Assembly: GCA_964479945.1 (NCBI GenBank)
Contig: CAYZNS010000004.1
Location: forward strand, 13,715 to 77,714
Direction: 5' to 3'
DNA: 64,000 bases
From: an uncultured Candidatus Saccharibacteria bacterium
Lineage (GTDB): Bacteria > Patescibacteriota > Minisyncoccia > Ryanbacterales > 2-02-FULL-48-12
The notes beneath the pieces are model-generated. The model was not told where the DNA came from, ran no database searches, and was given only the letters and a program-made list of their open reading frames with translations. Shown one piece after another: positions 25,035 through 64,000 of this stretch; the stretch's first letter is position 1, and every line of letters starts with the position of its first letter. The translations under genes were made by a program, and so were the position numbers.

Positions 25035-25076
25035 TAGTGACTTACAACTTACAACTTTTTTTGCTATACTATACTC

Positions 25077-29120: not shown

Positions 29121-29124
29121 AAAT

Positions 29125-29217
29125 CTCGTAACTCGTAATCCGTAACTCGTAATCCGTACCAGGAAGATTAATAAGATAAAATTCCTTTGTACGAGTTACG
29201 GTTTACGGATTACGAAT
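29125..29217. repeat. hairpin of CTCGTAA/TTACGAG heptamer repeats between rpsR and ssb
   Basis: ctcgtaactcgtaatccgtaactcgtaatccgta … tacgagttacggtttacggattacga inverted arms. Confidence 0.7.
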
Positions 29218-29226
29218 CCCTGTTTT

Positions 29227-29679
29227 TTAAAACGGTATTTCTTCCGGATTAACGTCGTCTTCGGGGTATTCCACGGTTGCAACATCTTCTTGTGGCGCTT
29301 TCCTTGCCGACGCCGCACCTGTGGTACCCCCGAGAGATGATCCGGTTGCGCGCGGGCCAAACTGGAAATTCTCCACAATTATCTCCGTGCGCGACTTTTT
29401 CTGCCCGTCCTGCCCGTCCCATGATCGCGTCTGCAGGCGGCCTTCTACATAGAGCGACCCGCCTTTTTTCATGTATTGGTGGATTAACTCTGCCGGTTTT
29501 CCGAATGCAACAAGATTATGAAATTCAGCCTGCTGCTGCTTCTGGCCGCTTTGATCCGTCCAGGTACGGTTTGTTGCCAAGCCAAAATTCACAACCGGTT
29601 TGCCGGAAGGAAGCGTTTTTAATTCCGGATCCCGCGTGAGATTTCCAATAAGAAGCGCTTTGTTTAGATTCATATTCAC
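29227..29679 (-). CDS. ssb: single-stranded DNA-binding protein
   Basis: OB fold, Gly/Gln-rich linker and acidic EEIPF C-terminal tip. Confidence 0.9.
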   Translation of the reverse strand: MNMNLNKALLIGNLTRDPELKTLPSGKPVVNFGLATNRTWTDQSGQKQQQAEFHNLVAFGKPAELIHQYMKKGGSLYVEGRLQTRSWDGQDGQKKSRTEIIVENFQFGPRATGSSLGGTTGAASARKAPQEDVATVEYPEDDVNPEEIPF

Positions 29680-29767
29680 GTATAACGTGTAACATGTAAC
29701 GTATAACGCAAGAAAAATATATGTATTGTTTCTTCACGTTCTACGTTCTACGCTTCACGTTTTATGA

Positions 29768-45284: not shown

Positions 45285-45481
45285 GCCACCTTAGCTCAGC
45301 GGCAGAGTCCCGTCTACATTGACTATTGTGGTAAGCCGAAGTAGCTCAGCGGTAGAGCAACTGTTTTGTAAACAGTAGGTCGCGAGTTCGAATCTCGCCT
45401 TCGGCTCATTATTCGGCTTACCACATAATGAATGTTGACGGGATAAAGCATGTGTCCTCGGTTCGAATCCGAGAGGTGGCT
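45285..45481 (+). tRNA. tRNA-like gene interrupted between anticodon-stem halves by a 116-nt insert
   Basis: 5' half GCCACCT-TA-GCTC-AGCGGCA-GAGT-C-CCGTC and 3' half GACGG…CTCGG-TTCGAAT-CCGAG-AGGTGGC-T pair as acceptor/D/T arms; TTGAC direct repeat at both junctions; no canonical anticodon loop reconstructable. Confidence 0.45.
45335..45406 (+). tRNA. tRNA-Thr (anticodon TGT) nested inside the interrupted tRNA-like gene
   Basis: GCCGAAG-TA-GCTC-AGCGGTA-GAGC-A-ACTGT-TTTGTAA-ACAGT-AGGTC-GCGAG-TTCGAAT-CTCGC-CTTCGGC-T. Confidence 0.8.
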
Positions 45482-46749: not shown

Positions 46750-47031
46750 ATGCAAAATACTAAAAAAACATGTGCCGGCTGTTTCCGCGTATTGGCGGAT
46801 GCCACGCGTATGGGGATTATTAAGCATTTGCAGGAAGGGGGCGCTCAAAATGTAAGCGCGCTCACGAAGCTTCTGCGCGTCTCGCAGCCGACGGTGTCGC
46901 ACCATCTGCACCGCCTCGCGGATGCCGGGTATGTAACGCGCACGCGCTTAGGAAAGCAAATACGGTATGAGTTTCGGAAAGATTATCCGTGCCGGGGATG
47001 CGGGGTGTTTTCAGCTCCTATACGGAGCTGA
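46750..47031 (+). CDS. ArsR/SmtB-family transcriptional regulator
   Basis: HTH ADATRMGIIKHLQEG…VSALTKLLRVSQPTVSHHLHRLADAGYV. Confidence 0.8.
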   Translation: MQNTKKTCAGCFRVLADATRMGIIKHLQEGGAQNVSALTKLLRVSQPTVSHHLHRLADAGYVTRTRLGKQIRYEFRKDYPCRGCGVFSAPIRS

Positions 47032-47067
47032 CAAGTTAAAAGTTAAAAGTGCAAAATGCAAAGTTAT

Positions 47068-47090
47068 GGTATCCCGCTTTCAGCGGGATG
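47068..47090 (+). terminator. GC hairpin terminator (GGTATCCCGC-tttcag-GCGGGATG) inside an A/T heptamer palindrome
   Basis: stem-loop flanked by gttaaaagtgcaaaatgcaaag / ttttgcactttgcactttg inverted arms. Confidence 0.5.
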
Positions 47091-47165
47091 ATTATATAAA
47101 TCCGTGAGCGAAGCGAACACCAAAATTTTGCACTTTGCACTTTGAATTTTGAACTAATATAGCAT

Positions 47166-48425
47166 ATGTCACAGCATGTAATCAAAGAAAATCATAAGCA
47201 AAAAACAACTATCAAACGCATATATGTAGACCATGCTGCCGCAACGCCGCTTGATCCGGTTGTGCTAAAGAAAATGATGCCGTATTTTACCAAGCAGTAC
47301 GGCAATCCATCATCCATTCATGCCGAGGGACGTGCCGCGCGTGCTGTCGTGGAGAATGCGCGGCGTGCTGTCGCGGATGTTTTGGGCGTCCGGCGCCAAG
47401 AAATTATATTTACCGGATCCGGCACTGAATCAATTGCTTTGGCACTCCGTGGTGTTTTGAGCGCGTATCCTGGCTCGCATCTGATCACCAGCGTGCTGGA
47501 ACATCCCGCCGTTGAGAAAAACGCGAAGCTTCTTTCCGAGGAGGGATATGCCGTATCTTTTGTGGGCGCCTCTGCCGCCGGCATTGTAGATACAAAGCGG
47601 CTAGCCGCTTCCATAACGCCGCAAACGACACTTGTATCTATAATCTACGTTAATAACGAAATAGGGTCGGTACAGCCTATAAAGGAAGTTGCGCGCGTAG
47701 TGCGGCGGGAGCGCAATCGGCGGCGCGCGGTGAGGGAGCAATTGCCGCTTTGGTTTCATATCGATGCCAGCCAGGCGCCTGCATATCATCCCTTGCGCGT
47801 AGATACATTGGGTGTTGATTTAATGACGCTCAACGCTTCAAAAATCTATGGTCCGAAAGGGATCGGTTTGTTATACAAGCGCAGCGCCGTTTCATTGCAG
47901 GCGCTTTGGGAAGGCGGCGGGCAGGAGGGCGGCATGCGCAGCGGCACGGAACATGTGGCAGGTATCGTAGGGTTTGCCGCAGCTTTGGGGCAGTTGATAC
48001 GGATGCAGTCGAAAGAATGCGCGCGCATGAAGCAACTGCAGGCATATTTTCTCTCTCGCCTGCAGGGCATGATTCCCGCAGCCGTTCTCAACGGCCCGCC
48101 GGCAGGAAACATACGTACGCCAAATAACGTGCATGTTTCTATTCCTGGCATTGCGGCAGAAAGCCTTGTTTTGTACCTTGACGCAAAGGGTGTTTCTGCG
48201 TCCACAGGTTCCGCTTGCAGCGCTCATAGTAACGAGGTGTCTCGTGGTATACTGCATATATTACAAAAGAGCTACGCGAATGACGGTGGCGTGCGGTTTA
48301 CTATGGGGCGCGGTACGACGAAGCGCGATGTTGATTATGTCGTAGGCACGCTTCGTAAGTGCGTGGACATATTAAAACGGGCACCGACGTTGGGAAGAAT
48401 TGAGAAAAACGTTATATGGCATTAG
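47166..48425 (+). CDS. cysteine desulfurase (NifS/IscS-like class V aminotransferase)
   Basis: IYVDHAAATP…, PLP Lys in …SKIYGPKGIG…, catalytic Cys loop. Confidence 0.85.
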   Translation: MSQHVIKENHKQKTTIKRIYVDHAAATPLDPVVLKKMMPYFTKQYGNPSSIHAEGRAARAVVENARRAVADVLGVRRQEIIFTGSGTESIALALRGVLSAYPGSHLITSVLEHPAVEKNAKLLSEEGYAVSFVGASAAGIVDTKRLAASITPQTTLVSIIYVNNEIGSVQPIKEVARVVRRERNRRRAVREQLPLWFHIDASQAPAYHPLRVDTLGVDLMTLNASKIYGPKGIGLLYKRSAVSLQALWEGGGQEGGMRSGTEHVAGIVGFAAALGQLIRMQSKECARMKQLQAYFLSRLQGMIPAAVLNGPPAGNIRTPNNVHVSIPGIAAESLVLYLDAKGVSASTGSACSAHSNEVSRGILHILQKSYANDGGVRFTMGRGTTKRDVDYVVGTLRKCVDILKRAPTLGRIEKNVIWH

Positions 48426-48649
48426 AAAGAAAAAAAGTGGGAAAAATTTTTGTTGACCGTGATTTATGCATTGGCGCGGCAAGCTGCATTGCGGTCGCGC
48501 CAGATACGTTTGAATTGGATCGGGAAAACAAAGCAATTGTGAAAGACAAGAACGCATCAGATGATGAAACGCTGCTGTTGGCAGCGCAATCGTGCCCGAC
48601 CAAGGCAATAATTGTTTATGATGAAGAGGGGAATCAGATATACCCGTAA
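48416..48649 (+). CDS. small 4Fe-4S ferredoxin
   Basis: DxCIGAASC…CP motif, 77 aa. Confidence 0.6.
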   Translation: MALERKKVGKIFVDRDLCIGAASCIAVAPDTFELDRENKAIVKDKNASDDETLLLAAQSCPTKAIIVYDEEGNQIYP

Positions 48650-48687
48650 AAAATGCAAAATGTAAAAATCAAAATGTAAAATTTTTG

Positions 48688-48709
48688 TATTCCGGCGAAG
48701 CCGGAATCA
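48688..48709 (+). terminator. GC hairpin terminator (TTCCGGC-gaa-GCCGGAA) inside an aaatg/cattt heptamer palindrome
   Basis: seen directly; between ferredoxin and SOD genes. Confidence 0.5.
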
Positions 48710-48778
48710 TTTTAGCATTTTACATTGTCATTTTGCATTTTGATTTTTACATTTTAAATTATAAACTAACAAGAAAAT

Positions 48779-49366
48779 ATGCATACTATAAAACCACTAA
48801 ACTATAAGGAGTTGCAAGGACTCTCGGAGAAACAGCTCACGGAGCATCATGACGTTCTGTATGCTGGCTATGTTAAAAAAATCGGCGAGATTGACGAAAA
48901 GCTTAAAACAACAGACAAATCTGCGGCCAATGCGACATACAGCGAATTCGGCGAGTTAAAGCGGGAAGAAACCTTCGCATTGAACGGCGTTAAGCTGCAT
49001 GAAGGATATTTTGACAACATGAAGCCGGACGGTTCACCGTGTTCCGGAAAAATCCGCGAACTTATTGAGCGCGATTTTGGATCCTATGAGGCATGGGAAG
49101 AGGAATTCCGCGCGGCGGGCATTGCGGGCCGCGGCTGGGTAGTGCTGGGATACGACCTTGAGGAAGGCAAGCTGCGCAACGTGTTATGCGATGCGCACAA
49201 CCATGGCGGCGTGTGGAATATGATAGCATTGTTCATTATGGACATCTATGAGCATGCCTATTTTCTTGACTATGGCACTGGAAGGAAAGCATATATTGAA
49301 GCGTTTTTCAAAAATCTAAACTGGGAACATGTGAATGGGTTATTGGAGAAATATAAAATAGGGTGA
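48779..49366 (+). CDS. Fe/Mn superoxide dismutase
   Basis: H…H metal ligands, C-terminal DxYEHAYFLDY…NW motif. Confidence 0.85.
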   Translation: MHTIKPLNYKELQGLSEKQLTEHHDVLYAGYVKKIGEIDEKLKTTDKSAANATYSEFGELKREETFALNGVKLHEGYFDNMKPDGSPCSGKIRELIERDFGSYEAWEEEFRAAGIAGRGWVVLGYDLEEGKLRNVLCDAHNHGGVWNMIALFIMDIYEHAYFLDYGTGRKAYIEAFFKNLNWEHVNGLLEKYKIG

Positions 49367-49418: not shown

Positions 49419-50624
49419 ATGCCAATGGAAGACCTTACCAAGAAACAAATGGTACTCCTGATGCTACTGGTCAGTTTTGTTACGTCGCTTTCTACCGTAG
49501 TGGTAACGCTCTCCATTTTAGACGAGGTTCCGGAAGCCGCACCGCAGACAATTTTACAGCGCGTGATACAGCGCGTTACGGATAAATCGGAGGACGTTTC
49601 AGAGAGAGGCGAAGTTGTTATTAAAGAAGAGGACCTTGTTATAGAAGTTGCTGCGCAAGCGTCGCCCGCCGTGGTAAGTATTGTGGCCGCAAAGGATCTT
49701 CCGGTGGTTCAGCGTTTTTTCTTTGATCCGTTCGGCAGCGGAGATATCAGTGGTGGGACGGAACATCGCGAAATAGGCCGCGGATCCGGTTTTATCGTCT
49801 CAAAAGACGGCATGCTGGTGACCAACCGTCATGTAGTGAGCGATTTGGAAGCGGAATATACCGTTATTTTAAGTTCCGGAAATACCTATCAGGCAAACGT
49901 ATTAGCGCGCGATCCTGTTCACGATATTGCTATCCTTACAATTGACGGCGGCCCGTTTCCTTTCGTGCCGCTGGGAAATTCAGATACCATCCGCATCGGA
50001 CAGACGGTTATTGCAATTGGCAATGCTTTGGGCGAGTTTGATAATACCGTGTCGGTGGGTATATTATCGGGGAAAGAGCGTACGCTGACGGCATTCGGCG
50101 GCAGCGCGGGTCCCAGTGATCTGCAGCGGGTTTTGCAGACGGATGCCGCAATTAACCCGGGAAACTCCGGCGGACCGCTGTTGAATACCGCGGGCGAAGT
50201 AATTGGCATCAATACGGCAATCGTCTCGGGCGCCGAGAATATTGGGTTTGCCGTACCCGTAAATATCGCGCGGCGCGATATAGAACAAGTAAAGAAAACT
50301 GGGCGCATTATCTATCCCTTTCTCGGCGTGCGTTATGTTACTATTACCGATGCCATACGCCAAGAGAATGGTATACATGCCAAGTTCGGCGTATTGGTGG
50401 TAGGCAGCGCGCAAAATCCGGCGGTACTGCCCGGATCGCCTGCGGATAAAGCGGGGTTGCGTGAAGGCGATATTATTACGCACGCGGGTGGCACGATGCT
50501 TGATCGTGATACATCACTTGCGGAGATTATCCAGATGAAAAATGTCGGCGACACGGTGACGCTCACCGTACAGCGAGAAGGCAAGAATATGTTGATGACG
50601 GTTACGCTGGCGGAACGCCCCTAG
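49419..50624 (+). CDS. htrA: HtrA/DegP-family serine protease with PDZ domain
   Basis: catalytic triad context GSGFIV…NRHVV…GNSGGPLLN, C-terminal PDZ. Confidence 0.85.
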   Translation: MPMEDLTKKQMVLLMLLVSFVTSLSTVVVTLSILDEVPEAAPQTILQRVIQRVTDKSEDVSERGEVVIKEEDLVIEVAAQASPAVVSIVAAKDLPVVQRFFFDPFGSGDISGGTEHREIGRGSGFIVSKDGMLVTNRHVVSDLEAEYTVILSSGNTYQANVLARDPVHDIAILTIDGGPFPFVPLGNSDTIRIGQTVIAIGNALGEFDNTVSVGILSGKERTLTAFGGSAGPSDLQRVLQTDAAINPGNSGGPLLNTAGEVIGINTAIVSGAENIGFAVPVNIARRDIEQVKKTGRIIYPFLGVRYVTITDAIRQENGIHAKFGVLVVGSAQNPAVLPGSPADKAGLREGDIITHAGGTMLDRDTSLAEIIQMKNVGDTVTLTVQREGKNMLMTVTLAERP

Positions 50625-50660
50625 AAAATTAAAAGTTAAAAATTAAAAGTGCAAAGTGTT

Positions 50661-50684
50661 GGTATTCCGGCTGCGCCGGAATGA
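50661..50684 (+). terminator. GC hairpin terminator (TTCCGGC-tgc-GCCGGAA)
   Basis: same family as 48688 with compensatory loop change. Confidence 0.5.
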
Positions 50685-50806
50685 ATGTACTGTGAATTAC
50701 GAAATGCATTATTTGACATCTGGAATGTGTCATTTCGTAATTCACAGAATGTATATAATCCGTGAGCGAAGCGAACACCAAAATTTTGAATTTTGCACTT
50801 TAAATT

Positions 50807-53500
50807 TTGAATTTATATATGACTCCATTTCATAATTTTACGGTAAAAGCCCAGGAAGCGCTCAAGCGGGCCCACGAGCTCGCCATTGAGCGCGGGCACA
50901 ATCAGATAGACGCGCTCCATCTTTTAAGCGCGCTGTTGCTGCAGGATGACGGCGTTGTCATTTCTCTTTTGGATAAGCTGGAAGTGGATACGCAGCTGAT
51001 GCTGGATTCTATTCTTGATAAGCTCAACGGCGGCACGCGCGGCGACCTTTTGACGCCCTCGCCGCAGATCTACCTGACGCAGGAATTAGCGCGGGTTTTG
51101 GAAGAATCGCATAAAGCTGCGGCCCAGCTCAACGACGAATTTATCTCAACGGAACATTTATTTATAGCGCTTTTGGACGTGCCGTCCCGTGCGGCCGATA
51201 TGCTTTCCAAATTCCGCATAGATAAAGAAGTTGTGTTACGGATCCTTCACGAAATCCGCGGATCGCAGACCGTTACCGACATGGAGCCGGAGACAAAATA
51301 CCAATCGCTGGAAAAATACGCGCGCAATTTGACGCGCCTTGCCAAAGAAGAAAAGCTGGACCCGGTCATCGGCCGGGAAGAAGAAGTGCGCCGCGTGATG
51401 CAGATTCTCTCGCGCCGCACCAAAAATAATCCCGTGCTCATCGGCGAGCCCGGCGTGGGGAAGACGGCTATTGTGGAGGGCTTGGCCCAGCGCATCGTAA
51501 TGGGCGACGTGCCAGAAAGCTTAAAAGAGAGGGAACTCATCGCGCTGGATCTTGGCGCGTTGGTTGCGGGTACTAAGTATCGGGGCGAATTTGAAGAGCG
51601 CTTGAAAGCGGTGCTTCGGGAAATTGACCGCGCGGCGGGGAAAATACTCTTGTTCATAGATGAGCTTCATACGCTGGTTGGCGCGGGTGCGGCCGAGGGC
51701 GCCATTGACGCCTCTAACATGTTGAAGCCCGCGCTTGCCCGCGGGGAATTGCATGCCATAGGAGCTACCACGCTAAAGGAATATCAAAAATATATTGAAC
51801 GCGATATGGCGTTGGCGCGGCGATTCCAGCCCGTGTATGTGGAAGAGCCATCAATAGATGACGCTATCGCCATCCTCCGCGGCTTAAAGCAGAAATACGA
51901 GCTTCATCACGGCGTGCGCATCACCGATAGCGCAATTGTAGGGGCGGTACAGCTCTCAAGCCGATACATTGCAGACCGGTTTCTGCCGGACAAAGCGGTT
52001 GATTTGATAGATGAAGCCGCCTCCTCTCTGCGGTTGGATATTGATTCCATGCCGAAAGATCTTGACCGGGCGCGCCGCGAGATTATGCGCCTGGAGATTG
52101 AGAAAGAAGCGCTCAAGCGCGAGGCGGAGCCGTCGGCTAAGCAGAAAGTCAAGAAAATTCAAAAACAAATTGAGGAGCTCAAGGAAAAAACGGGGGGACT
52201 GGAGCTCAAATGGAAAAATGAAAAGGAGGCGATCGTCGGCATCCGCGGAATGAAAAAGGAACTCGACGCGATGCGCCAGGAATCCGATGCGGCGGAACGC
52301 GCGGGGAATTTGGCGAAAGTTGCCGAAATCCGCTACGGCCGTATTCCCGCGTTGGAAAAAAATATCAGCGATGAAGAGGCGCGCCTGGGCAAACTGCAAT
52401 CCGCGCGCCATATATTGAAAGAAAGCGTTGCGGAAGAAGACATCGCCGAGGTAATTTCCCGATGGACGGGGGTACCCGTGATGCGCATGCTGGAGGAGGA
52501 GGCAAAGAAATTGCTCACCATGGAGGACGTGCTTCAAAAACGCGTGGTGGGGCAGGAAGAAGCAATCTCCAAAGTAGCGCAGGCAATCCGCCGTTCGCGC
52601 GCGGGCGTAGGAGAAGAGGACCGGCCGGTTGGCTCGTTTATGTTTTTGGGCCCCACGGGTGTCGGGAAAACTGAGCTTGCTCGCGCCTTGGCCGAGTTTC
52701 TTTTCAACGATGAAAAATCGCTTATCCGCGTGGATATGTCTGAATATATGGAGCGTCACACGGTGTCTAAGTTTATCGGATCTCCTCCCGGATACGTGGG
52801 GCATGAAGAAGGCGGGCAGCTGACTGAGCTTATCCGCCACCGGCCGTATTCCGTGGTGCTGTTTGACGAAATTGAAAAAGCGCATCCAGAGGTGTTTAAC
52901 ATCATGCTGCAAGTGCTTGACAATGGCCGGCTTACGGACGCGAAAGGTCGGCATGTTAATTTCAAAAATTCTGTCATTATCATGACGTCCAATATCGGCT
53001 CCGAGTACGTGCGCGAGATGGAACGCTTGGGATTTGCGGCCGGCGAGGAAGATACAAAAGAGCGCCGTGAAGATAATTTGAAATCAAAAATCCGGCAGGC
53101 ATTGGAGCGCAACTTCCGCCCCGAGTTCTTAAACCGCCTTGATGAAATTTTGATATTCAACAGCTTATCGCCTGAAATTTTGAGCGAGATAGTGAAAATC
53201 CAGCTTGACCGCGTTGCGCGTCGTCTGGAGCAAAAACAAATTGCGCTTAAAGTAAGCGCGGAAGCTCGCAAGTTCTTAGCGCGCGAAGGCCATGATCCGC
53301 ATTATGGCGCGCGGCCGCTTAAGCGTTATATTCAAAATCACATCCTAAACCCGCTTGCGGAACATATTGTAGGCGGCAAAATCAAGCCGGACAGCGCCAT
53401 ACGTGTGGAAATTCGCGATGGACGGCTGGTACTGGAGACCGATCGCAGGCACGTGAAAAAGGAAGCGCGCAAAGAAGAGCCGGTTGCCGCAGGGGTGTAA
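50807..53500 (+). CDS. clpB: ATP-dependent chaperone ClpB
   Basis: Clp-N, two AAA+ modules with Walker motifs, middle coiled-coil domain, 897 aa. Confidence 0.95.
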
Positions 53501-53693: not shown

Positions 53694-53777
53694 GGGTCGG
53701 TGGCGGAGCGGTCAATCGCACTAGACTGTAAATCTAGCGCCTATATGGCTACGCAGGTTCGAATCCTGCCCGGCCCA
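53694..53777 (+). tRNA. tRNA-Tyr (anticodon GTA), class II long variable arm
   Basis: GGGTCGG…CTAGA-CTGTAAA-TCTAG-CGCCTATATGGCTAC-GCAGG-TTCGAAT-CCTGC-CCGGCCC-A. Confidence 0.8.
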
Positions 53778-55757: not shown

Positions 55758-55829
55758 GCCGGAGTAGTTCAGTGGCAGAACGCCATCTTGGTAAGATGGA
55801 AGTCGAGAGTTCGATTCTCTCTTCCGGCT
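55758..55829 (+). tRNA. tRNA-Thr (anticodon GGT)
   Basis: GCCGGAG-TA-GTTC-AGTGGCA-GAAC-G-CCATC-TTGGTAA-GATGG-AAGTC-GAGAG-TTCGATT-CTCTC-TTCCGGC-T. Confidence 0.8.
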
Positions 55830-56050: not shown

Positions 56051-56122
56051 GGGGGTATGGTGAAACGGCTATCACGACGGTCTCCAAAACCGTTGTTCTA
56101 GGTTCGAGTCCTAGTATCCCCG
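56051..56122 (+). tRNA. tRNA-Trp (anticodon CCA)
   Basis: GGGGGTA-TG-GTGA-AACGGCTA-TCAC-G-ACGGT-CTCCAAA-ACCGT-TGTT-CTAGG-TTCGAGT-CCTAG-TATCCCC-G. Confidence 0.8.
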
Positions 56123-57128: not shown

Positions 57129-58646
57129 ATGATATTTATATTCTCTTTATTTCTCGTTTTACTCGCCCTCCCGGCTTTTGCCTCGGGGGCTGTTGTCGGT
57201 AATGAAATAGCATGGATGGGAACTGAAACAAGCGCGAATGACGAGTGGATTGAGTTATACAACAACGGCAGTGAAAGTATTGATTTGAGCGGTTGGCGCA
57301 TAGTGGATGCCATAAACGGATCGCCGGATATTGCCATAGGTGATGCATGTATAAAAACAACCATCTCAGCCGGAGGTTATTTCCTACTTGAACGGTCCGA
57401 TGATGATTCGGTTCCTGGTATATCTGCCGATTGCATCTATACGGGCGCATTAAGTAACAGCGGCGAACATTTGCAGTTGATAGATGCGGGCGGGAATATC
57501 ATGGATTCTGTTAATGCGGCAGATGGATGGCCTGCCGGTGATAACACAACCAAAGAGACCATGCAAAAATCTGGCGGTGGATGGGTAACGGCTCAGGCAA
57601 CGCCGAAAGCAGCAAATGCCGTAGGCGGCAGCACTGATGATCCTTATGATTCCGGCTCTGAAACTAATACCGGCGATACGAGCAAATCATCAAATTCGTC
57701 AAACCAAAGCGGGTCATCATCAGGAGGCAGTAGCGCGTATGTCCCGCCGGAAGATCTGCCGCGCATCACAGCGAATGCAGGGAAGGATACAAGCGCAATA
57801 GTGGGTGAGGAGATAGAATTTCGCGGCATGGCGTTCGGGTTAGAAGGCGAACCAATGGAACATGTACGGTATCTGTGGAATTTTGGTGATGGCGGTACGC
57901 GCGAGGGGCAGAATGTAGGGCATGCCTATATGTTCCCGGGTACGTATATGGTACGCCTTACGATTTCTTCAGGAAAATATACTGCGTTTGACGGCCTCGC
58001 CGTATCAATAGGCGAAGGAGGCATGATAATAAGCGAAGCCAAACCCGGCATGGATGGTTGGATTGAACTGCAAAACAAAGGAATCCAAGCCATTCATGTG
58101 GGGAATTGGATTATAGAATCATCCGCGCAACGGTTTATATTTCCGCAGGGTACCACTATAGCGCCCGGGAGTTTCGCGGTGCTTTCCGCGGCAACAACGA
58201 AACTTATCTTAGAAGAAGCTGGTGATGCTGTGCATCTGTTCTATCCGAACGGATCTTTCGCAAATGGTTTCTCCTATGTGTTCCAAGTTCCGGCAGGGAT
58301 GAGCATTTCAAACAACGAGGGCGTTGCAATATTTACAAATCCGACGCCGGGCAAGCCGAATGCTGTGCCGGCGCTGCCGCCAGTACAAGAACCGTTGGTA
58401 CAAAAGCGCTCTGTTGCGGCAAATGTTTTGCCGCCGACAAGCACAAAGCCAACCATTGCAACCAAAATTACTTTGCCGGCGCCGCCTATAGAGCCACTTG
58501 CCCGCGCGTCCGTGTTTGACGCCGCGCCTCCGCCATCCCAAAAAAACAGCGAAACCATCTGGTTCGCCGGAAGCCTGATAGCTGGCGGCCTCCTTGCCGT
58601 TGCAGTGGTATTTTTAAGGCGGAAAAGAAATAGCGTGGATATTTAA
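57129..58646 (+). CDS. cell-surface protein with two lamin-tail domains and a PKD domain, C-terminal TM anchor
   Basis: signal peptide; EWIELYNNGSESIDLSGWRI and GWIELQNKGIQAIHVGNWII lamin-tail motifs; PKD YLWNFGDGGT…GTYMVRLTIS; Ser-rich linker; C-terminal hydrophobic helix plus RRKR. Confidence 0.7.
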   Translation: MIFIFSLFLVLLALPAFASGAVVGNEIAWMGTETSANDEWIELYNNGSESIDLSGWRIVDAINGSPDIAIGDACIKTTISAGGYFLLERSDDDSVPGISADCIYTGALSNSGEHLQLIDAGGNIMDSVNAADGWPAGDNTTKETMQKSGGGWVTAQATPKAANAVGGSTDDPYDSGSETNTGDTSKSSNSSNQSGSSSGGSSAYVPPEDLPRITANAGKDTSAIVGEEIEFRGMAFGLEGEPMEHVRYLWNFGDGGTREGQNVGHAYMFPGTYMVRLTISSGKYTAFDGLAVSIGEGGMIISEAKPGMDGWIELQNKGIQAIHVGNWIIESSAQRFIFPQGTTIAPGSFAVLSAATTKLILEEAGDAVHLFYPNGSFANGFSYVFQVPAGMSISNNEGVAIFTNPTPGKPNAVPALPPVQEPLVQKRSVAANVLPPTSTKPTIATKITLPAPPIEPLARASVFDAAPPPSQKNSETIWFAGSLIAGGLLAVAVVFLRRKRNSVDI

Positions 58647-59788
58647 TATTTATATAATGCAATAGTTTTTTGCATCATCGTTTCAAGTGAAAATTCCGCC
58701 GTGACGCGCCTTTTATTTTCTTCCCCCATTTGTTTGCGCAAGTCCGCGTTTTGGCAAAGCTGAATAATTGAATCGGCAAGATCGGTAAGAGAAATAGGGG
58801 ACACAAGAAATCCGTTTTTTTCGTGTTCAATAATATCCGGCACGCCGCCAACGCGCGTTGCTACCACCGGCAAACCGGCAAGACCTGCCTCCAGAAGCGT
58901 GTACGGCAGTCCTTCTTTAAGCGACGGAAGTACGAATATGTCAAATGCTTTAAGATAAGGAGCGGCCGGCGATTTAGAAATAAAGAAAACATGGTTTTCC
59001 AACCCCAACTTTGCACTTTGCACTTTGCACTTTGCACTTTCTTCTCCCCATCCTATAAGGCAAAGTTTCGCTTCCGGAAACTTCTGAAGAACCGCCGGCA
59101 GAGCAACTATCAAAAAATCAAGCCCTTTATTTTTGGTCCACTCCGCGATAGTGCCAATTACCAGTGGATATTCCTGGCCGAACAATTCATGCTGTGCTTG
59201 GGCGCGCGGCAAGAATTGCAAGACCTCGATGCCATTGTGTATCAGCGTTACTTTGGAGGATGGCGCGACGTTGTATGATAACGCGGCTCGCCGATCGTTT
59301 TCGGAAATAACAATAACATGATCATGCAGGAGTACCGTTATTTTGCTTGCATAGCGTATAAGCAAGCGCTGCCAATGCGGACGCCATGTTTCTTCAAAAG
59401 GCAAGCCGTGCACTGTGAACACGCGCATGATGTTTTTGGCGGCAAGCGCGTTATAAAAAAAAGCAGCCGCTCCCGCGATACCTCCTGCTTTGGAGCTGTT
59501 CGTATGTATAATGTCCGGTTGGAAACGGCGGTATACGGCAAGAAGTTCAAAAAAAGAGATGATATCTTTGAGCGGATTGATTGATTTTTGAAATCCGGCA
59601 ATGGGGAAGACCACTACGTGTTCTTCGGCTAGTTTTTCCGTAAGCGCGCCACCGGGAACGGTTGCAACCGCTGTTTCAAATTCTTCCCGCGGCAGATGTG
59701 TGGCAAGATCAAACACATACCGCTGGGCGCCCCCCCATACGGATTTTGTGATGACAAACAGGATTTTTTTTCGTTTATCGTTTTGCAT
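58643..59788 (-). CDS. GT4-family glycosyltransferase carrying an in-frame TGCAAAG heptamer tract
   Basis: GT-B fold, EX7E-like …LPSLKEGLPYTLLEAGLAGLPVVAT; CTTTGCA x4 at 59009-59036 encodes ESAKCKVQSAK. Confidence 0.8.
   Translation of the reverse strand: MQNDKRKKILFVITKSVWGGAQRYVFDLATHLPREEFETAVATVPGGALTEKLAEEHVVVFPIAGFQKSINPLKDIISFFELLAVYRRFQPDIIHTNSSKAGGIAGAAAFFYNALAAKNIMRVFTVHGLPFEETWRPHWQRLLIRYASKITVLLHDHVIVISENDRRAALSYNVAPSSKVTLIHNGIEVLQFLPRAQAQHELFGQEYPLVIGTIAEWTKNKGLDFLIVALPAVLQKFPEAKLCLIGWGEESAKCKVQSAKLGLENHVFFISKSPAAPYLKAFDIFVLPSLKEGLPYTLLEAGLAGLPVVATRVGGVPDIIEHEKNGFLVSPISLTDLADSIIQLCQNADLRKQMGEENKRRVTAEFSLETMMQKTIALYKY
59009..59036 (-). repeat. CTTTGCA x4 heptamer tandem repeat inside a coding sequence
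   Basis: seen directly; the same heptamer builds intergenic hairpins at 47120-47150 and 7450-7465. Confidence 0.9.
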
Positions 59789-59809
59789 TATGGATGCATC
59801 ACGGACTTC

Positions 59810-59887
59810 GCTGAAGGATATGCGCTTCAGGAGGGTTTACTTGGCCAAGCGGCCGTGAGCGCCCTCCTGAAGCGCATATCCTTCAGC
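59810..59887. promoter_or_regulatory. perfect 26-bp inverted repeat with 26-nt spacer between divergent glycosyltransferase genes
   Basis: GCTGAAGGATATGCGCTTCAGGAGGG … CCCTCCTGAAGCGCATATCCTTCAGC; spacer contains CTTGGCCAAG palindrome. Confidence 0.6.
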
Positions 59888-59907
59888 AAATAATTACATA
59901 TGTTACA

Positions 59908-61062
59908 ATGTATAATACACTGTTTATGCATAATAAAAAAACTATTCTTATTTTCTCAACTGCCTATCTGCCCCTGATAGGCGGCGCGGAGCTTGCCATG
60001 CAAGAAATAACCGGCCGCATACGCGATTTTGATTTTGTTTTAATAACAGCGCGCATGCGGCGCGCGTATCCGCCGCAGGAACGCATCGGCAATGTTGAGG
60101 TGCGCCGCATTGGCGTTGGGCTTCCGGCGCTGGATAAAATCCTTGTTGGTATCGGCGGCATGCTAACAGCACGTCGCTTGATGCGCGAACGGCCTGTCTG
60201 CCTCTTTTGGGGTATGATGGCAAGTTACGCGAGCATGGCGCCGGCGCTCCTTTCTCTTCTGCGCCTCAATCAAGGCGTACCGTTTTTGCTTACGCTTCAA
60301 GAGGGAGATTCGGAAGTACATATCGCGCGCGGACGGCTTGGACTCGTACGATACGGATGGCGTTTTATGCTTCGCCACGCAAGTCATATACAGGTGATAA
60401 GCAATTATCTTGACGGTATGGCGCGGACATATGGGTACACCGGGGATATAACGCTCGTACCCAATGGAGTGGACACAAATCGTATAACGCGAAACGTAGA
60501 ACGTAGAACGCAAGAAAAAAAAGTTATTATTACAGTGTCGCGACTCGTAGAGAAAAACGGGGTTGATACATTGATTCGAGCTTTTGCGGAGGTTTATAAA
60601 AAATATCCGCTCTCCGAATTGCATATAGTGGGGGACGGCCCGTTGCGGTTTGAGCTTGAGGCGCTTTCGCGCGTGCTTGGCGTAGGGAAGGCAACAACGT
60701 TTTTTGGCGCCGTACCGTATGAGAAAGTGCCGGAACATTTGGCGGAGGCAGATATTTTTGCGCGCCCGTCACGGTCGGAAGGGTTAGGCACCGCGTTTCT
60801 GGAAGCGATGGCCGCCGGTTTGCCGATACTAGGCACGCCGGTAGGCGGCATTGTGGACTTTTTGCGGGATGGCGAGACGGGTTTGGTGTGCAACGTTGAC
60901 GATGCAGACGATCTTGCGGATAAAATATGCGCGCTTTTGGAAAATAGGGAACTTTACGAACGATTGCAAAAAAACGGCAGACAACTCGTGGAGAGTGAGT
61001 ATAGCTGGGATAGCGTCGCGGAACGGATGAAAAACATAATGAACTCGCTATGCGCATCGTAA
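59908..61062 (+). CDS. GT4-family glycosyltransferase
   Basis: N-terminal STAYLPLIGGAE, C-terminal PSRSEGLGTAFLEAMAAGLPILGT; contains ACGTAGA x2 (60494-60510); likely start at the second ATG (59926). Confidence 0.8.
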   Translation: MYNTLFMHNKKTILIFSTAYLPLIGGAELAMQEITGRIRDFDFVLITARMRRAYPPQERIGNVEVRRIGVGLPALDKILVGIGGMLTARRLMRERPVCLFWGMMASYASMAPALLSLLRLNQGVPFLLTLQEGDSEVHIARGRLGLVRYGWRFMLRHASHIQVISNYLDGMARTYGYTGDITLVPNGVDTNRITRNVERRTQEKKVIITVSRLVEKNGVDTLIRAFAEVYKKYPLSELHIVGDGPLRFELEALSRVLGVGKATTFFGAVPYEKVPEHLAEADIFARPSRSEGLGTAFLEAMAAGLPILGTPVGGIVDFLRDGETGLVCNVDDADDLADKICALLENRELYERLQKNGRQLVESEYSWDSVAERMKNIMNSLCAS

Positions 61063-62216
61063 TCGCAACGGGCATATTCCCGCCGGATATCGGAGGACCG
61101 GCGACATACAGCAAGGTATTGGCTGAAGAGCTTGTTAAGCGCGGGCACACAGTTACGGTTGTTACATACGGTAGCAATGAATCAAGAAGTAAGAATCAGG
61201 AATCAAGGAATAATAATTACGAGTTACGAGTTACGAGTTACGAGTTACGAAAAGGTATCCGGCACATGGTTTATTTCTGGCGCGTATACCGCGCGGGCCG
61301 CAATGCCGATGTAATCTACGCGCAGGATGCGGTAAGCGCGGGGTTTCCGGCGGCAGTGGCCGCACTTCTGCTCAAGCGGCGTTTTATACTTAAAATTGTG
61401 GGGGACCATGCATGGGAGCAAGGTGTGCAGCGCTTCGGCGTGCGGGACTTGCTGGATGATTTTCTTGGGAAATCATATGGCGCGCGCGTCGGCATGCTGC
61501 GCATGGTACAACGGTTTGCGGGCCGAAGAGCAAAGCACATTATCGTGCCAAGCGAATATTTAAAATCTGTGGTAGAACGGTGGGGCTTGAAGCCGGACAA
61601 AATAACAGTTATCCCGAACGCGGTTTCCATTTCACAGAATCTCGTATCAAAAAAGGAAGCGCGCGCGAAATTGGGATTGGATAGTGAAGCTTTTATTCTT
61701 CTTTCCATAGGCCGCCTTGTACCATGGAAAGGATTTGGGATGCTGATTGAATTGATGCCTCGAATTACCGCGAAAATTTCTGACGCAAAACTTATTATCA
61801 TAGGAAATGGTCCTGATGAAGATATATTACGAGTTACGAGTTACGAGTTACGAGTTCCCGTTATATTTACAGGTGGTATTCCAAAAGAAAATATTGCTCT
61901 GTATCTTGCGGCGGCTGATATGTTCTGCCTCAACACGGCTTATGAGGGTTTCTCTCATCAGCTTATTGAAGCTATGACCGCCGGTATTCCGGTGATAACA
62001 ACGAATGCGGGGGGTAATAAAGAAATCATACGGGATGGAGAAAATGCGTTGGTAGCGCGGTATAATGATGATGCAGACTGGCAAGAGAAAATTTTCTTAC
62101 TGTATCATAATGAGGCGTTGCGCCTTCGTCTGTCCCGTGGAGGAGAACATATTGCGGATCATTATTCTCTGGAGCGCATGGTTATAAAGACAGAATCCAT
62201 AATCCGTAATTCATGA
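61050..62216 (+). CDS. GT4-family glycosyltransferase with two in-frame TTACGAG tracts
   Basis: IFPPDIGGPATY…, C-terminal EGFSHQLIEAMTAGIPVITT; repeats encode …NNYELRVTSYELRKG… and …DILRVTSYELRVPV…. Confidence 0.8.
   Translation: MRIVIATGIFPPDIGGPATYSKVLAEELVKRGHTVTVVTYGSNESRSKNQESRNNNYELRVTSYELRKGIRHMVYFWRVYRAGRNADVIYAQDAVSAGFPAAVAALLLKRRFILKIVGDHAWEQGVQRFGVRDLLDDFLGKSYGARVGMLRMVQRFAGRRAKHIIVPSEYLKSVVERWGLKPDKITVIPNAVSISQNLVSKKEARAKLGLDSEAFILLSIGRLVPWKGFGMLIELMPRITAKISDAKLIIIGNGPDEDILRVTSYELRVPVIFTGGIPKENIALYLAAADMFCLNTAYEGFSHQLIEAMTAGIPVITTNAGGNKEIIRDGENALVARYNDDADWQEKIFLLYHNEALRLRLSRGGEHIADHYSLERMVIKTESIIRNS
61217..61251 (+). repeat. TTACGAG x4 (+1 degenerate) heptamer tandem repeat inside a coding sequence
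   Basis: seen directly. Confidence 0.9.
61827..61854 (+). repeat. TTACGAG x4 heptamer tandem repeat inside a coding sequence
   Basis: seen directly. Confidence 0.9.
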
Positions 62217-63250
62217 AAATCGTAATGTTCACATCCGATCCCCAGGCATTTGTTTCCGGATCGCATACCTGGAACCGCATGCGTCTGTATGAAGCTGCAC
62301 TGGAGAAATTGGAACTTGTCCGCATGGACCGGTCACAAGGAAGATATGCAAGATTTTGGCGCGGATATAAGAAAGCAAAGCTGCTTGTACGCGGCGAGCG
62401 CTATGATCTTATAGTGGCACAGGATGTGGAGCACGCATTCCTTGCGTGGCATCTTTCCCGGCGCTGCGGCGTGCCGTTTCAAATGCAGATTCATACGGAT
62501 ATATTCAGCCCATACGTTTGGAGGGGCAGCATGTTGAACAAGGCGCGCGTTCTGTTCGCCATGTTCCTGATCCCGCGGGCATCATGCATACGGGTTGTAT
62601 CAGAGCGCATACGGCGTTCCATTACGGCGCGATACCCTGATACGCATATATCTATTACGGTGCTCCCCGTTATTCCCGCATATTCCGGAACTCCGGAAGC
62701 AAAACTTCCGGAATTTTTTACCGTACTTATGGTTGCGCGGCTGGAGAAGGAAAAAAACATTCCCTTAGCGCTGCGCGTATTCGCCAAGTTTTTACGGGGG
62801 CATCCGGGGGCGCGTCTGCGCATTGTTGGAAACGGATCGCAAAGAGCGGCATTGAAACGCATGTGCGCTGCTTTGGGAATTGAACATTCGGTGGAGTTCC
62901 GGGAAGCGTTTTCTATGAAGGAATATGAAACCGCCCATGTTTTGCTGCTCACCTCAAATTATGAGGGATACGGAATGGTGGCGCTGGAAGCGTTGCGGAG
63001 CGGTTTGCCGGTGATTATGACTAATGTCGGCGTGGCGGGTGAAGTTGTGCTGGATGGCGTAAATGGCCTGGTGGTGCCCGTGGGAGACGAAGAAAAACTG
63101 CTGGAAGCGCTTACTCGCTATGCAGGGGATAGCGCGGTGCAAGATCGGCTGCGCCGGGGGGCTAAGGCAACGCAGGCGCCCTATGCATCGCAGGAAGAAT
63201 ACAGGGATAAGCTTTTGGCGTCATGGCGAACATGCGGCATGAAAAATTAA
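62213..63250 (+). CDS. GT4-family glycosyltransferase
   Basis: LTSNYEGYGMVALEALRSGLPVIMTNVGVAGEVV; ATGA overlap upstream. Confidence 0.75.
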   Translation: MKIVMFTSDPQAFVSGSHTWNRMRLYEAALEKLELVRMDRSQGRYARFWRGYKKAKLLVRGERYDLIVAQDVEHAFLAWHLSRRCGVPFQMQIHTDIFSPYVWRGSMLNKARVLFAMFLIPRASCIRVVSERIRRSITARYPDTHISITVLPVIPAYSGTPEAKLPEFFTVLMVARLEKEKNIPLALRVFAKFLRGHPGARLRIVGNGSQRAALKRMCAALGIEHSVEFREAFSMKEYETAHVLLLTSNYEGYGMVALEALRSGLPVIMTNVGVAGEVVLDGVNGLVVPVGDEEKLLEALTRYAGDSAVQDRLRRGAKATQAPYASQEEYRDKLLASWRTCGMKN

Positions 63251-64000
63251 AAGTCTGTTATATAGTGCCGGAAATTGCGGAAGATGCCTCAACGCATTTT
63301 GAGCATAAGCGGGAAATTATACAGGAGCTTCGGGGCGATATTGAATTTTTTGTATATGCTCCGACTCTTATAAGCATCGTGAAAATCAAATTTGCTTATT
63401 TTTTCCGCGGCGTTCGCATATTCTATGTGCATTATTCATTCAAGGGCGCGCTCGTTGCCATACTCCTTACAAAACTTTTTGGCGGCAGGGTCTTTTACTG
63501 GAACTGCGGTATGCCATGGTTGTATAAGCGCGGGTGGCTGGAGGAGAAATTATTTAGATTTATTTTACGGAACTCGATATTTGTTACCGGCACGAATTCT
63601 CTTGCGGAACACTATGCTGATCGGTATGGGCTTGATCGCGCGCGCGTACGCGTAGTGCCGAATTATATTCGCGTCTCGCATATGCAGGGAATTACGCGCG
63701 ATTCAGCGCGTAGGGAACTTGAGATTCCATCGGGTAAAAAGGTTGTACTTTTTCTGCATCGCCTCTCGCGGCGCAAGGGGGCGCATTTTTTGCCGGATAT
63801 TTTAAAAGAGTTTGCGATCAGGGAAGACGTACTATTTTTGATAGTCGGCGACGGCCCCGAACGTACCAATACCGAGTTACGAGTTACGAGTTACGAGTTA
63901 CAAAACAGGGTTCGTTTTGAGGGAAATGTGCCAAATAATCGTGTGCCAATTTATTTCGCAGCCGCGGATGTTTTTCTTATGCCTTCCGAAGAAGAGGGGA
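63238..64000 (+). CDS. GT4-family glycosyltransferase (3'-truncated by window) with in-frame TTACGAG tract
   Basis: ATG at 63238 overlapping the upstream stop; …LFLIVGDGPERTNTELRVTSYELQNRVRF…FLMPSEEEG; not in the ORF track because it has no in-window stop. Confidence 0.65.
63877..63897 (+). repeat. TTACGAG x3 heptamer tandem repeat inside a coding sequence
   Basis: seen directly. Confidence 0.9.

What the first reader, a model, noticed from the sequence alone, without database searches (positions are those of the whole stretch)
58643..64000. Heptanucleotide tandem repeats sit in-frame inside four of five glycosyltransferase genes: candidate phase-variable surface-glycosylation locus
Four to five perfect copies of a 7-nt unit lie inside GT4 coding sequences. 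CTTTGCA x4 is at 59009-59036 in the minus-strand GT. TTACGAG x4-5 is at 61217-61251 and x4 at 61827-61854 in the 61050-62216 GT. TTACGAG x3 is at 63877-63897 in the last GT. ACGTAGA x2 is at 60494-60510. Each run is translated as extra peptide (ELRVTSYEL, AKCKVQSAK) while the ORF stays open. Because 7 is not divisible by 3, gaining or losing one unit by slipped-strand mispairing would frameshift the gene. Gaining or losing three units would add or remove 7 residues. This is the architecture of contingency loci in lipopolysaccharide/capsule glycosyltransferases of host-associated bacteria. Here the genes sit next to a lamin-tail-domain/PKD surface protein and a TPR protein. The same heptamers also build intergenic hairpins elsewhere in the window, so one repeat-generating process appears to act on both coding and non-coding DNA.
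Basis: partly seen in the sequence, partly recalled or inferred. Interest (0 to 1): 0.85.

Follow-up and report, generated by a model that had tools for sequence, protein, structure and literature searches.

The report
Seven-base repeats built into glycosyltransferase genes
Four of five sugar-transferase genes in this ultra-small (Parcubacteria) bacterium carry perfect 7-base repeat runs, which across its relatives occur almost only in this gene family; the runs are translated as normal parts of the enzyme, and I found no sign that they act as frequent on/off switches.

Summary
Perfect period-7 arrays lie in frame in GT1, GT2, GT3 (two arrays) and GT5, and 7 is the only period enriched apart from the codon period 3. 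The window comes from a Parcubacteria (Ryanbacteria-like) genome.

Three points go beyond the finding:
- In 83 related loci, period-7 arrays occur about 30 times more often in GT4 genes than in other coding DNA, at recurrent structural sites.
- The commonest site is the helix between the GxGP strand and the VxFxG strand. Arrays there add no length, so they encode the canonical helix rather than extra peptide.
- Orthologues carry arrays of the same position and length but different units. All copies change together, which is concerted evolution.

The phase-variation reading fails the tests I could run. Copy number is fixed at 4-5 units. About 100 of 101 arrays are in frame. Near-identical strains and three assemblies of this strain show no unit-number variants. 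The known heptanucleotide switch neuO shows 3-53 copies and 66% OFF alleles.

Best reading: self-homogenising heptanucleotide arrays have colonised permissive segments of GT4 genes and are held in frame by selection, so they are latent frameshift sites. Rare adaptive switching is not excluded. The restriction to GT4 genes remains unexplained.

The parts
58643..59788 (-). GT1, a GT4-family glycosyltransferase of 381 aa
   Evidence: ORF. Pfam hits Glycos_transf_1 and Glyco_transf_4.
59008..59040 (-). Perfect heptanucleotide array, sense unit GCAAAGT, 4.7 copies, 33 nt. It encodes SAKCKVQSAKL at the helix after IGWGE (site A).
   Evidence: The orthologues carry AATTTCA (L004) and GATTTAC/GATTTAA (L007) at the same site.
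59908..61062 (+). GT2, a GT4-family glycosyltransferase of 384 aa
60493..60510 (+). Short array, AACGTAG x2.6, downstream of the PNGVD motif (encodes NVERRT). The unit contains TAG in its third frame, so the next unit is altered (AACGCAA) and the array cannot extend.
   Evidence: The same 17-mer lies on the other strand at 29736-29752.
61050..62216 (+). GT3, a GT4-family glycosyltransferase of 388 aa. The EX7E motif is E299-E307.
   Evidence: AlphaFold2 model with mean pLDDT 88.4. The closest solved relative by sequence is BshA, 2jjm.
61175..61211 (+). Degenerate (GAATCAR)n array, about 5 units, in the N-domain variable segment. The model has low confidence here.
   Evidence: Tandem Repeats Finder reports 74% matches. 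pLDDT is below 50 for residues 47-53.
61217..61250 (+). Perfect array, TTACGAG x4.9, 34 nt (site D). It encodes NYELRVTSYELR, part of which is predicted as strand 58-63.
   Evidence: The orthologues carry AATTTCA (L004) and CAAAATT (L006) at this site.
61827..61856 (+). Perfect array, TTACGAG x4.3, 30 nt (site A). It encodes LRVTSYELRV, which is helix 257-267 between strands 246-251 and 271-275.
   Evidence: It aligns to the canonical helix of 2jjm. L004 has TTACAAC x4.6 and L006 has a degenerate TTACGAG array at the same codons.
62213..63250 (+). GT4, a GT4-family glycosyltransferase of 345 aa with no array. It shows the ordinary helix sequence QRAALKRMCAALGIEHS.
63223..64000 (+). GT5, a GT4-family glycosyltransferase cut by the window end. 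It is 348 aa on the identical contig L001.
63873..63901 (+). Perfect array in the TTACGAG register, 4.1 copies, 29 nt (site A). It encodes TELRVTSYELQ after VGDGPERTN.
   Evidence: The L004 orthologue has GAATTAC at this site.
29122..29214 (.). Intergenic hairpin between convergent genes. Its arms are degenerate CTCGTAA and TTACGRR arrays, the same unit family as the GT3 and GT5 arrays.
   Evidence: Folding energy -39.3 kcal/mol, z = -6.9.
47033..47155 (.). Intergenic nested hairpin. Its arms include (AAAGTGC/TTTGCAC)n, the unit of the GT1 array, and they enclose a GC-rich hairpin and a dispersed 22-mer.
   Evidence: z = -7.6.
29678..29761 (.). Intergenic pair of arrays, ACGTATA-type and ACGTTCT. 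The second is the reverse complement of the GT2 unit AACGTAG.
   Evidence: The fold is weak, z = -1.8.

Best explanation
The tracts belong to a lineage-wide class of heptanucleotide microsatellite arrays in Parcubacteria. Each array has about 4-5 units (29-34 nt).

Shown:
- Within coding DNA the arrays are concentrated in GT4 glycosyltransferase genes, at recurrent permissive positions. The commonest is the surface helix between the (I/V)GxGP strand and the VxFxG strand. Others follow the PNGVD motif or lie in N-domain loops.
- At the helix site the arrays replace the native sequence rather than lengthen it.
- Seven bases cycle through all three reading frames, so each array is translated as a 7-residue repeat. 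That repeat supplies the helix (or strand) and its Leu positions at i and i+7.
- The copies within an array stay identical to each other while the unit differs between genomes.
- Array length and reading frame are conserved.

Inferred:
- Arrays are homogenised by slipped-strand mispairing and/or array-to-array conversion. This would explain why one genome reuses a unit at several sites, in both coding and intergenic DNA.
- Purifying selection holds length and frame, because any single-unit change truncates the enzyme.
- Each array is therefore a latent frameshift or deletion hotspot in surface-glycan genes, not a demonstrated high-frequency switch.

Not explained: why the arrays are so specific to GT4 genes.
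For: - Period 7 alone is enriched. The window has 12 tracts against 0.1 expected. In 840 kb from 80 related loci there are 79 tracts at period 7, 12 at period 6 and 4 at period 8.
- GT4 specificity. Perfect tracts of at least 17 nt: 82 in GT4-like ORFs (384 kb), 3 in other ORFs (487 kb), 9 intergenic. By Tandem Repeats Finder outside the window: 28.5 per 100 kb in GT4 genes, 0.9 in other ORFs, 17.9 intergenic.
- Recurrent sites. 53 of 113 arrays follow GxGP. 51 of 193 GT4 genes show period-7 autocorrelation of at least 0.7 at that site, against at most 2 for periods 5, 6, 8 and 9.
- Replacement, not insertion. The GxGP-to-EGFG spacing is 43-45 aa with or without an array in every paralogue group. 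In the AlphaFold2 model the array forms helix 257-267 with pLDDT above 90. It aligns to the helix of the solved structure 2jjm.
- Concerted evolution at constant length. Examples are ATTATCA x4 against ATTACAA x4 with flanks about 83% identical, ATTCAGC against ATTCCAC, and TTACGAG against TTACAAC.
- Unit sharing. 5.2% of array pairs within a locus share a unit, against 1.0% of pairs between loci.
- The process is blind to coding. Units that contain a stop in one frame are present but are patched every 21 nt.
- Frame is conserved. Only 1 array-associated disrupted gene was found among 309 GT4 ORFs. The probability of at least 100 of 101 arrays being in frame under random phase is 1e-46.
Against: - Tolerance plus mutation does not explain a roughly 30-fold excess over other coding DNA.
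- GT arrays are more homogeneous than intergenic ones. Among arrays of at least 4 copies, 32 of 101 are perfect in GT genes against 0 of 24 intergenic (p = 5e-4). Frame constraint should slow slippage inside genes, so this hints that array integrity is itself maintained.
- Homogenisation in single-unit steps must pass through out-of-frame intermediates. That amounts to low-rate phase variation.
- The common length of about 32 nt in both coding and non-coding arrays is unexplained.
- No read-level data were examined.
Confidence: 0.55

Rival explanations
1. True contingency loci. The arrays are kept perfect because reversible gain or loss of one unit switches individual glycosyltransferases off and on. 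This would vary the surface glycan of an episymbiotic cell, for example to escape phage or its host. Switching would be rare enough that consensus assemblies nearly always show the ON allele.
For: - The unit length is not divisible by 3, and every single-unit change gives a truncated enzyme.
- The strong restriction to surface-glycan GT4 genes matches the gene class of known contingency loci.
- GT arrays are more perfect than intergenic arrays.
- Concerted unit turnover and ABAB or AABB unit patterns imply repeated slippage, and therefore passage through OFF states.
- A heptanucleotide coding switch is already known: neuO (PMC13001214).
Against: - Copy number is 4-5 everywhere, against 3-53 in neuO.
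- About 1% of arrays are out of frame, against 66% OFF for neuO.
- No unit-number differences were found in three assemblies of this strain, in L004/L005, or in L007/L008/L093.
- No array-length variants were found in ten 90%-identity protein clusters.
- No truncated near-identical GT3 allele exists in the 15-billion-protein collection.
- The tracts lie mid-gene inside structural elements.
- The gene cluster is syntenic in relatives.
Confidence: 0.25
2. Small mobile or copy-paste modules. Arrays of about 30-33 nt are dispersed repeat elements, comparable to cyanobacterial small dispersed repeats or Rickettsia palindromic elements. They are inserted or copied into new sites, and only in-frame copies in tolerant GT segments survive.
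For: - Arrays have a common length of about 29-34 nt in genes and in intergenic hairpin arms.
- One genome reuses the same unit at unrelated sites and on both strands.
- A perfect array sits next to a degenerate one at GT3 site D, as if modules were added side by side.
- GC-rich palindromes are nested in arrays, in frame, in L007 GT3, and also in the intergenic hairpins.
Against: - At site A there is no net insertion. Spacing is identical with and without an array.
- Array boundaries differ between copies that share a unit.
- No target-site duplication, terminal motif or associated enzyme was identified.
- Orthologous arrays keep their boundaries while the unit drifts, which fits in-place homogenisation.
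Confidence: 0.1
3. Recombination linkers. Identical arrays of about 30 nt at equivalent positions in paralogous GT genes serve as in-frame crossover points for shuffling donor and acceptor domains.
For: - GT3 site A and GT5 site A carry the same unit in the same orientation.
- Array length is close to the minimum needed for RecA-dependent recombination (general knowledge, not tested here).
- L042 looks like a deletion between two arrays.
Against: - Same-unit pairs usually lie at non-equivalent sites or on opposite strands. Examples are GT3 site D with GT3 site A, L004 GT1 with GT3 site D, and L063 site E with site C.
- Most paralogues in one genome carry different units.
- The one recombinant-like case is a dead gene.
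Confidence: 0.04
4. Protein-level feature. The heptad peptides themselves are selected, for example as an amphipathic helix, and the DNA repeat is a by-product.
For: - The arrays supply Leu at positions i and i+7 of the helix.
- They are predicted with high confidence as a regular helix.
Against: - The peptides differ completely between orthologues.
- Perfect identity of the units at DNA level cannot be maintained by selection on the protein.
- The same units occur in non-coding hairpins.
- Array-free paralogues such as GT2 and GT4 have ordinary helices.
Confidence: 0.03
5. Assembly or sequencing artefact.
For: None. The one frameshift seen in a relative (L093) lies in a poly-G cluster and may itself be an artefact.
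Against: - The tracts are identical in three independent contigs from ENA and JGI.
- The same phenomenon appears in dozens of genomes assembled from metagenomes by different groups.
Confidence: 0.01

Closest known systems
neuO, the phage-borne K1 capsule O-acetyltransferase of E. coli: a heptanucleotide (AAGACTC) coding-region repeat that causes phase variation
   Same: Both have a 7-nt unit inside an ORF of a surface-glycan-modifying enzyme. In both the repeat is translated as a 7-residue repeat and the gene is in frame only for one residue class of unit number (PMC13001214).
   Different: - The neuO tract lies at the 5' end. It ranges from 3 to 53 units, and 66% of genomes are OFF.
- Here the arrays are mid-gene, fixed at 4-5 units and about 99% in frame.
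- Here they encode canonical fold elements and occur at many sites in many paralogues.
Heptanucleotide repeat arrays of cyanobacteria (STRR of Calothrix, Nostoc and Anabaena) and of Xanthomonas (GGGAATC)
   Same: - Both are dispersed tandem heptamers, mostly with four or more units and with several unit types.
- In both, arrays often sit within 0-50 bp of a stop codon or overlap it, and sometimes form inverted pairs that make hairpins.
- In both, arrays vary between close relatives (PMC4692102). The intergenic arrays in this window behave the same way.
   Different: - Those arrays are described chiefly in intergenic regions and are G-rich.
- No association with one gene family, and no length-neutral replacement of protein segments, is mentioned in the passages of that paper that I read.
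- The lineage here (Parcubacteria) is unrelated, and the units are A/T-rich.
Rickettsia palindromic elements: selfish repeats inserted in frame in protein-coding genes (from my own knowledge, not read here)
   Same: Repetitive DNA is tolerated inside ORFs at surface-exposed positions and is translated. The in-frame GC palindromes nested in the arrays of L007 GT3 resemble this.
   Different: - Those elements are palindromic, 100-150 bp long, and add residues.
- The arrays here are short direct repeats and not palindromic.
- At the main site they add no length.
- They are restricted to one enzyme family.
Small dispersed repeats nested in tandem heptamer repeats in Nostoc (Elhai et al. 2008, from my own knowledge; the paper is not in the searchable library)
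   Same: Very short repeated modules are associated with heptamer arrays, and GC-rich hairpin elements are nested inside the arrays.
   Different: Mobility is not shown here, and an association with coding genes is not a feature of those elements.

Membership tests
Simple-sequence-repeat contingency (phase-variable) locus | Tandem repeat inside the ORF (or promoter) whose unit length is not divisible by 3, so that unit gain or loss shifts the frame | tested here: met
   There are five period-7 tracts in four ORFs. Simulated gain or loss of 7 nt truncates each protein.
Simple-sequence-repeat contingency (phase-variable) locus | Tract-length polymorphism between closely related strains or within a population | tested here: not met
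   No unit-number change was found in three assemblies of this strain, in L004/L005, or in L007/L008/L093. Ten 90%-identity protein clusters show none either. Only consensus assemblies were tested, not reads.
Simple-sequence-repeat contingency (phase-variable) locus | Out-of-frame (OFF) alleles common among sequenced genomes | tested here: not met
   One array-associated disrupted gene (L042, deletion-like) was found among 309 GT4 ORFs and about 101 arrays of at least 4 copies. For neuO, 66% of genomes are OFF.
Simple-sequence-repeat contingency (phase-variable) locus | Measured reversible switching at high frequency | not testable with these tools
   This needs reads, cultures or a reporter assay.
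neuO-type heptanucleotide coding repeat | A long, highly variable 5' tract that encodes an N-terminal heptad extension | tested here: not met
   The arrays have 4-5 units, lie mid-gene and replace fold elements.
STRR-like dispersed heptanucleotide arrays | Tandem heptamers of several unit types dispersed through the genome, mostly intergenic, near gene ends and often as inverted pairs | tested here: met
   The window has 16 intergenic arrays of at least 3.5 copies. Many abut stop codons and form hairpins. The coding arrays share units with them.
In-frame selfish palindromic insertions (Rickettsia palindromic element type) | A palindromic element that adds residues to the host protein | tested here: not met
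   The GT arrays have no inverted partner. No length is added at site A.
GT4 (GT-B fold, retaining) glycosyltransferases: the host genes | Glyco_transf_4 N-domain plus Glycos_transf_1 C-domain, two Rossmann-like domains, and an EX7E motif | tested here: met
   Pfam hits for all five ORFs. The AlphaFold2 model shows alternating strands and helices. E299-x7-E307 is present in GT3. Solved relatives include BshA, PimA, PimB and MshA. Catalytic activity was not tested.

The most novel reading that the evidence does not exclude
Parcubacteria actively maintain heptanucleotide arrays specifically in GT4 surface-glycan genes, as a dedicated low-copy diversification or switching system. The arrays would be continually renewed, which would explain why they are perfect, why all copies of the unit change together, and why units are shared between sites. 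They would provide rare reversible frameshifts, or array-to-array recombination, that remodel the cell-surface glycan. This would be the first contingency-type system described in the Candidate Phyla Radiation. It would work with an unusual design: a fixed length of about 32 nt that doubles as a structural element of the enzyme.
Probability: 0.25. Interest if true: 0.85.

Novelty: new variant of a known kind. Interest (0 to 1): 0.68.

Why it matters
Candidate Phyla Radiation bacteria live attached to other cells, and their surface glycans are probably central to attachment and to phage susceptibility. How they vary those surfaces is unknown.

A repeat class that is almost confined to GT4 genes, conserved in position across many candidate phyla and visibly self-renewing is one of two things. 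It may be an unrecognised switching or diversification device. Or it may be an unusually clean natural case of microsatellites overwriting protein segments without changing length, because a 7-nt repeat is translated as a 7-residue repeat that fits a helix.

Either outcome can be tested directly with existing metagenomic reads. There is also a practical consequence: these tracts are likely sites of frameshift calls and mis-assemblies in genomes assembled from metagenomes.

Tried and rejected
- The metagenome scan for close relatives of GT3 returned only relatives of 51% identity or lower, so it gave no population series.
- Members of the 90%-identity protein clusters differ in length only through alternative start codons or contig ends, never at arrays.
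- The truncated allele P0127 (locus L093) is not a unit slip. It is a cluster of 4 substitutions plus 1 inserted G that makes a G9 run inside a nested palindrome. This may be a poly-G sequencing artefact.
- I looked for inverted partners of the GT arrays, which would indicate an mRNA hairpin or antisense pairing. None lies within 1.5 kb.
- The recombination-linker idea fails because same-unit pairs mostly sit at non-equivalent sites.
- Rfam gave only five tRNAs and no family for the hairpins.
- GT arrays and intergenic arrays do not co-occur by locus (Fisher p = 1), but the power is low.
- Literature searches that combined Candidate Phyla Radiation names with heptanucleotide, simple-sequence-repeat or phase-variation terms listed no paper on such repeats in these bacteria among the 15-20 top-ranked papers shown. 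The Elhai 2008 paper is not in the library.

Full report
**What is there.**
- Window 58643-64000 holds five adjacent GT4-family glycosyltransferase genes. They are GT1 58643-59788 (minus strand), GT2 59908-61062, GT3 61050-62216, GT4 62213-63250, and GT5 from 63223, which is cut by the window end.
- Perfect period-7 tracts lie at 59008-59040 (33 nt), 60493-60510 (18 nt), 61217-61250 (34 nt), 61827-61856 (30 nt) and 63873-63901 (29 nt). A degenerate array at 61175-61211 abuts the third tract.
- The window has 12 perfect period-7 tracts of at least 17 nt, against 0.1 expected. Periods 4-6 and 8-15 are at or near expectation, and only the codon period 3 is also raised.
- Every GT unit recurs in intergenic hairpins in the same window: TTACGAG at 1418-1438 and 29125-29152, TTTGCAC at 47127 and 50646, and AACGTAG on the other strand at 29736. 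Four of the five hairpins I folded are strongly structured, with z from -4.4 to -8.

**Organism and context.**
- The best relatives of GT3 come from Candidatus Ryanbacteria and other Parcubacteria. The nearest is only 65% identical.
- The arrangement TPR protein, LTD/PKD protein, GT1 (minus strand), then GT2 to GT5 is conserved in relatives. This is a stable gene cluster, not a variable island.
- Three contigs from other assemblies are 100% identical to the window over up to 12,951 nt, with all tracts included.

**The arrays replace sequence; they do not add it.**
- In GT1, GT3 (second tract) and GT5 the array lies at the same structural position, between the (I/V)GxGP strand and the VxFxG strand.
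- Across 193 GT4 genes, the spacing from GxGP to the EGFG motif is 43-45 residues whether or not an array is present. This holds in each paralogue group.
- The AlphaFold2 model of GT3 (mean pLDDT 88.4) places LRVTSYELRV in helix 257-267, with pLDDT above 90. The first TTACGAG array partly forms strand 58-63.
- The segment aligns to the canonical helix of the solved GT4 enzyme 2jjm.
- 'Extra peptide' is therefore wrong for this site. The N-domain site does lie in a segment of variable length.

**The phenomenon is lineage-wide and specific to GT4 genes.**
- In 80 Parcubacteria loci (840 kb), period 7 gives 79 tracts, period 6 gives 12 and period 8 gives 4.
- With the window included, perfect tracts of at least 17 nt number 82 in GT4-like ORFs (384 kb), 3 in other ORFs (487 kb) and 9 in intergenic DNA.
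- Outside the window, Tandem Repeats Finder arrays of at least 3.5 copies occur at 28.5 per 100 kb in GT4 genes, 0.9 in other ORFs and 17.9 in intergenic DNA.
- 113 arrays lie in 75 of 309 GT4 ORFs, in 43 of 83 loci. Fifty-three follow GxGP. Other recurrent sites are after PNGVD, between RVVSxRI and VLPIF, in N-domain loops, and just before the GxGP strand.
- At the GxGP site, 51 of 193 genes show period-7 autocorrelation of at least 0.7, against at most 2 for periods 5, 6, 8 and 9.
- Array length peaks at 29-34 nt in genes and in intergenic arms alike. No perfect tract exceeds 35 nt.

**Concerted evolution.**
- Orthologues keep array position and length but differ in the unit, and all copies change together.
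  - GT1: AGTGCAA in the window, AATTTCA in L004, GATTTAC/GATTTAA in L007.
  - GT3 site A: TTACGAG against TTACAAC.
  - L024 ATTATCA x4 against L044 ATTACAA x4, with flanks about 83% identical.
  - L082 ATTCAGC against L092 ATTCCAC.
- Block (AAABB) and ABAB unit patterns point to past slips of one and two units.
- Array pairs within a locus share a unit five times more often than pairs between loci.
- Units with a stop in one frame, such as AACGTAG in GT2 and AAAAGTT, are present but are patched every 21 nt. This accounts for the class of tracts 17-21 nt long, and it shows a DNA-level process that is blind to coding.

**Tests of phase variation.**
- A change of one unit would truncate every gene before the EX7E region, so the potential is real.
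- Copy number is 4-5 everywhere.
- Of 309 GT4 ORFs, only two are split. One is split by a run of N. The other (L042) has lost the GxGP strand between array remnants. At least 100 of 101 arrays in frame has probability 1e-46 under random phase.
- Near-identical strain sets show no unit-number change. Neither do ten 90%-identity protein clusters.
- The benchmark heptanucleotide switch neuO shows 3-53 units and 65.6% OFF genomes (PMC13001214).
- The defining population features of a contingency locus are therefore not met at the level of consensus assemblies. Read-level data were not available.

**What remains odd.**
- GT arrays are more homogeneous than intergenic ones. Among arrays of at least 4 copies, 32 of 101 are perfect in GT genes against 0 of 24 intergenic (p = 5e-4).
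- The excess over other coding DNA is too large for passive tolerance alone.
- Homogenisation by single-unit slips must pass through OFF intermediates.
- For these reasons I give rare adaptive switching 0.25 rather than dismissing it.

**Comparison with what is known.**
- Over-representation of heptameric repeats in bacteria has been noted before. Intergenic heptamer arrays near stop codons, some of them inverted, are described for Xanthomonas and Nostoc, and tandem heptanucleotide repeats for Calothrix (PMC4692102).
- neuO is the known coding-region heptanucleotide switch.
- The top-ranked results of my literature searches included no report of such repeats in Candidate Phyla Radiation bacteria, and none of a GT4-specific, length-neutral, self-homogenising array class.
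- I therefore rate this as a new variant of a known kind.

Noticed in passing
window 7355-7580, 20440-20745, 47025-47170, 48640-48785, 50615-50815: Long nested hairpins begin at or just after stop codons. The minimum free energy reaches -122 kcal/mol for 20440-20745. Their stems are successive blocks of different degenerate heptamer arrays, usually with one unpaired base per 7-nt unit. No Rfam family matches them. They may be terminators or stabilisers of mRNA 3' ends.
   Followed up: partly
window 47100-47121 and 50758-50779; GC hairpins near 41680, 47068, 48690 and 50662: An identical 22-mer, ATCCGTGAGCGAAGCGAACACC, occurs twice, and short GC-rich hairpins (GGTATCCCGC..GCGGGAT and GTATTCCGGC..GCCGGAAT) recur. 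All are nested inside heptamer-array hairpins. This suggests a small dispersed element that lands in arrays.
   Followed up: partly
window 59807-59835 and 59862-59890: A 29-nt inverted repeat, 97% complementary with a 26-nt loop, lies in the divergent intergenic region between GT1 and GT2. It could be an operator or a regulatory hairpin for the cluster.
   Followed up: no
window 24413-24441 and 25040-25057: Inverted (TTACAAC)n arrays bracket a stretch of about 600 nt that has no ORF of 90 aa or more.
   Followed up: no
L007 7960-8075 and 8690-8740 (GT3 orthologue): GC-rich palindromes, for example TCCGCCAGCTGGCGGA, are nested inside heptamer arrays and translated in frame. They lengthen the protein at the N-domain site. 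This resembles Rickettsia palindromic elements.
   Followed up: partly
L093 2737-2773 (strain 99.8% identical to L007): GT3 is split into two ORFs by four substitutions plus one inserted G, which together create a G9 run inside the nested palindrome. This is either a real homopolymer frameshift or a poly-G sequencing artefact. It is not a change in unit number.
   Followed up: partly
L042 6480-6720: A GT4 paralogue lacks the LxIVGDGPE strand, and a degenerate AATTTAA-type array with in-frame TAA sits at the junction. It looks like a deletion between two flanking arrays, which would be irreversible array-mediated inactivation.
   Followed up: partly
L007 2420-2547, 3443-3605 and 6491-6653: A dispersed intergenic repeat of about 130-160 nt, with copies about 93% identical, is present in a Ryanbacteria relative. 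One copy lies between GT1 and GT2.
   Followed up: no
window 61217-61250 compared with 61827-61856: The same peptide, ELRVTSYEL, is predicted as a beta strand at one site and as an alpha helix at the other within a single protein.
   Followed up: no
window 3939-4009, 45335-45406, 53694-53777, 55758-55829 and 56051-56122: Five tRNA genes. They are the only Rfam matches in the window.
   Followed up: no
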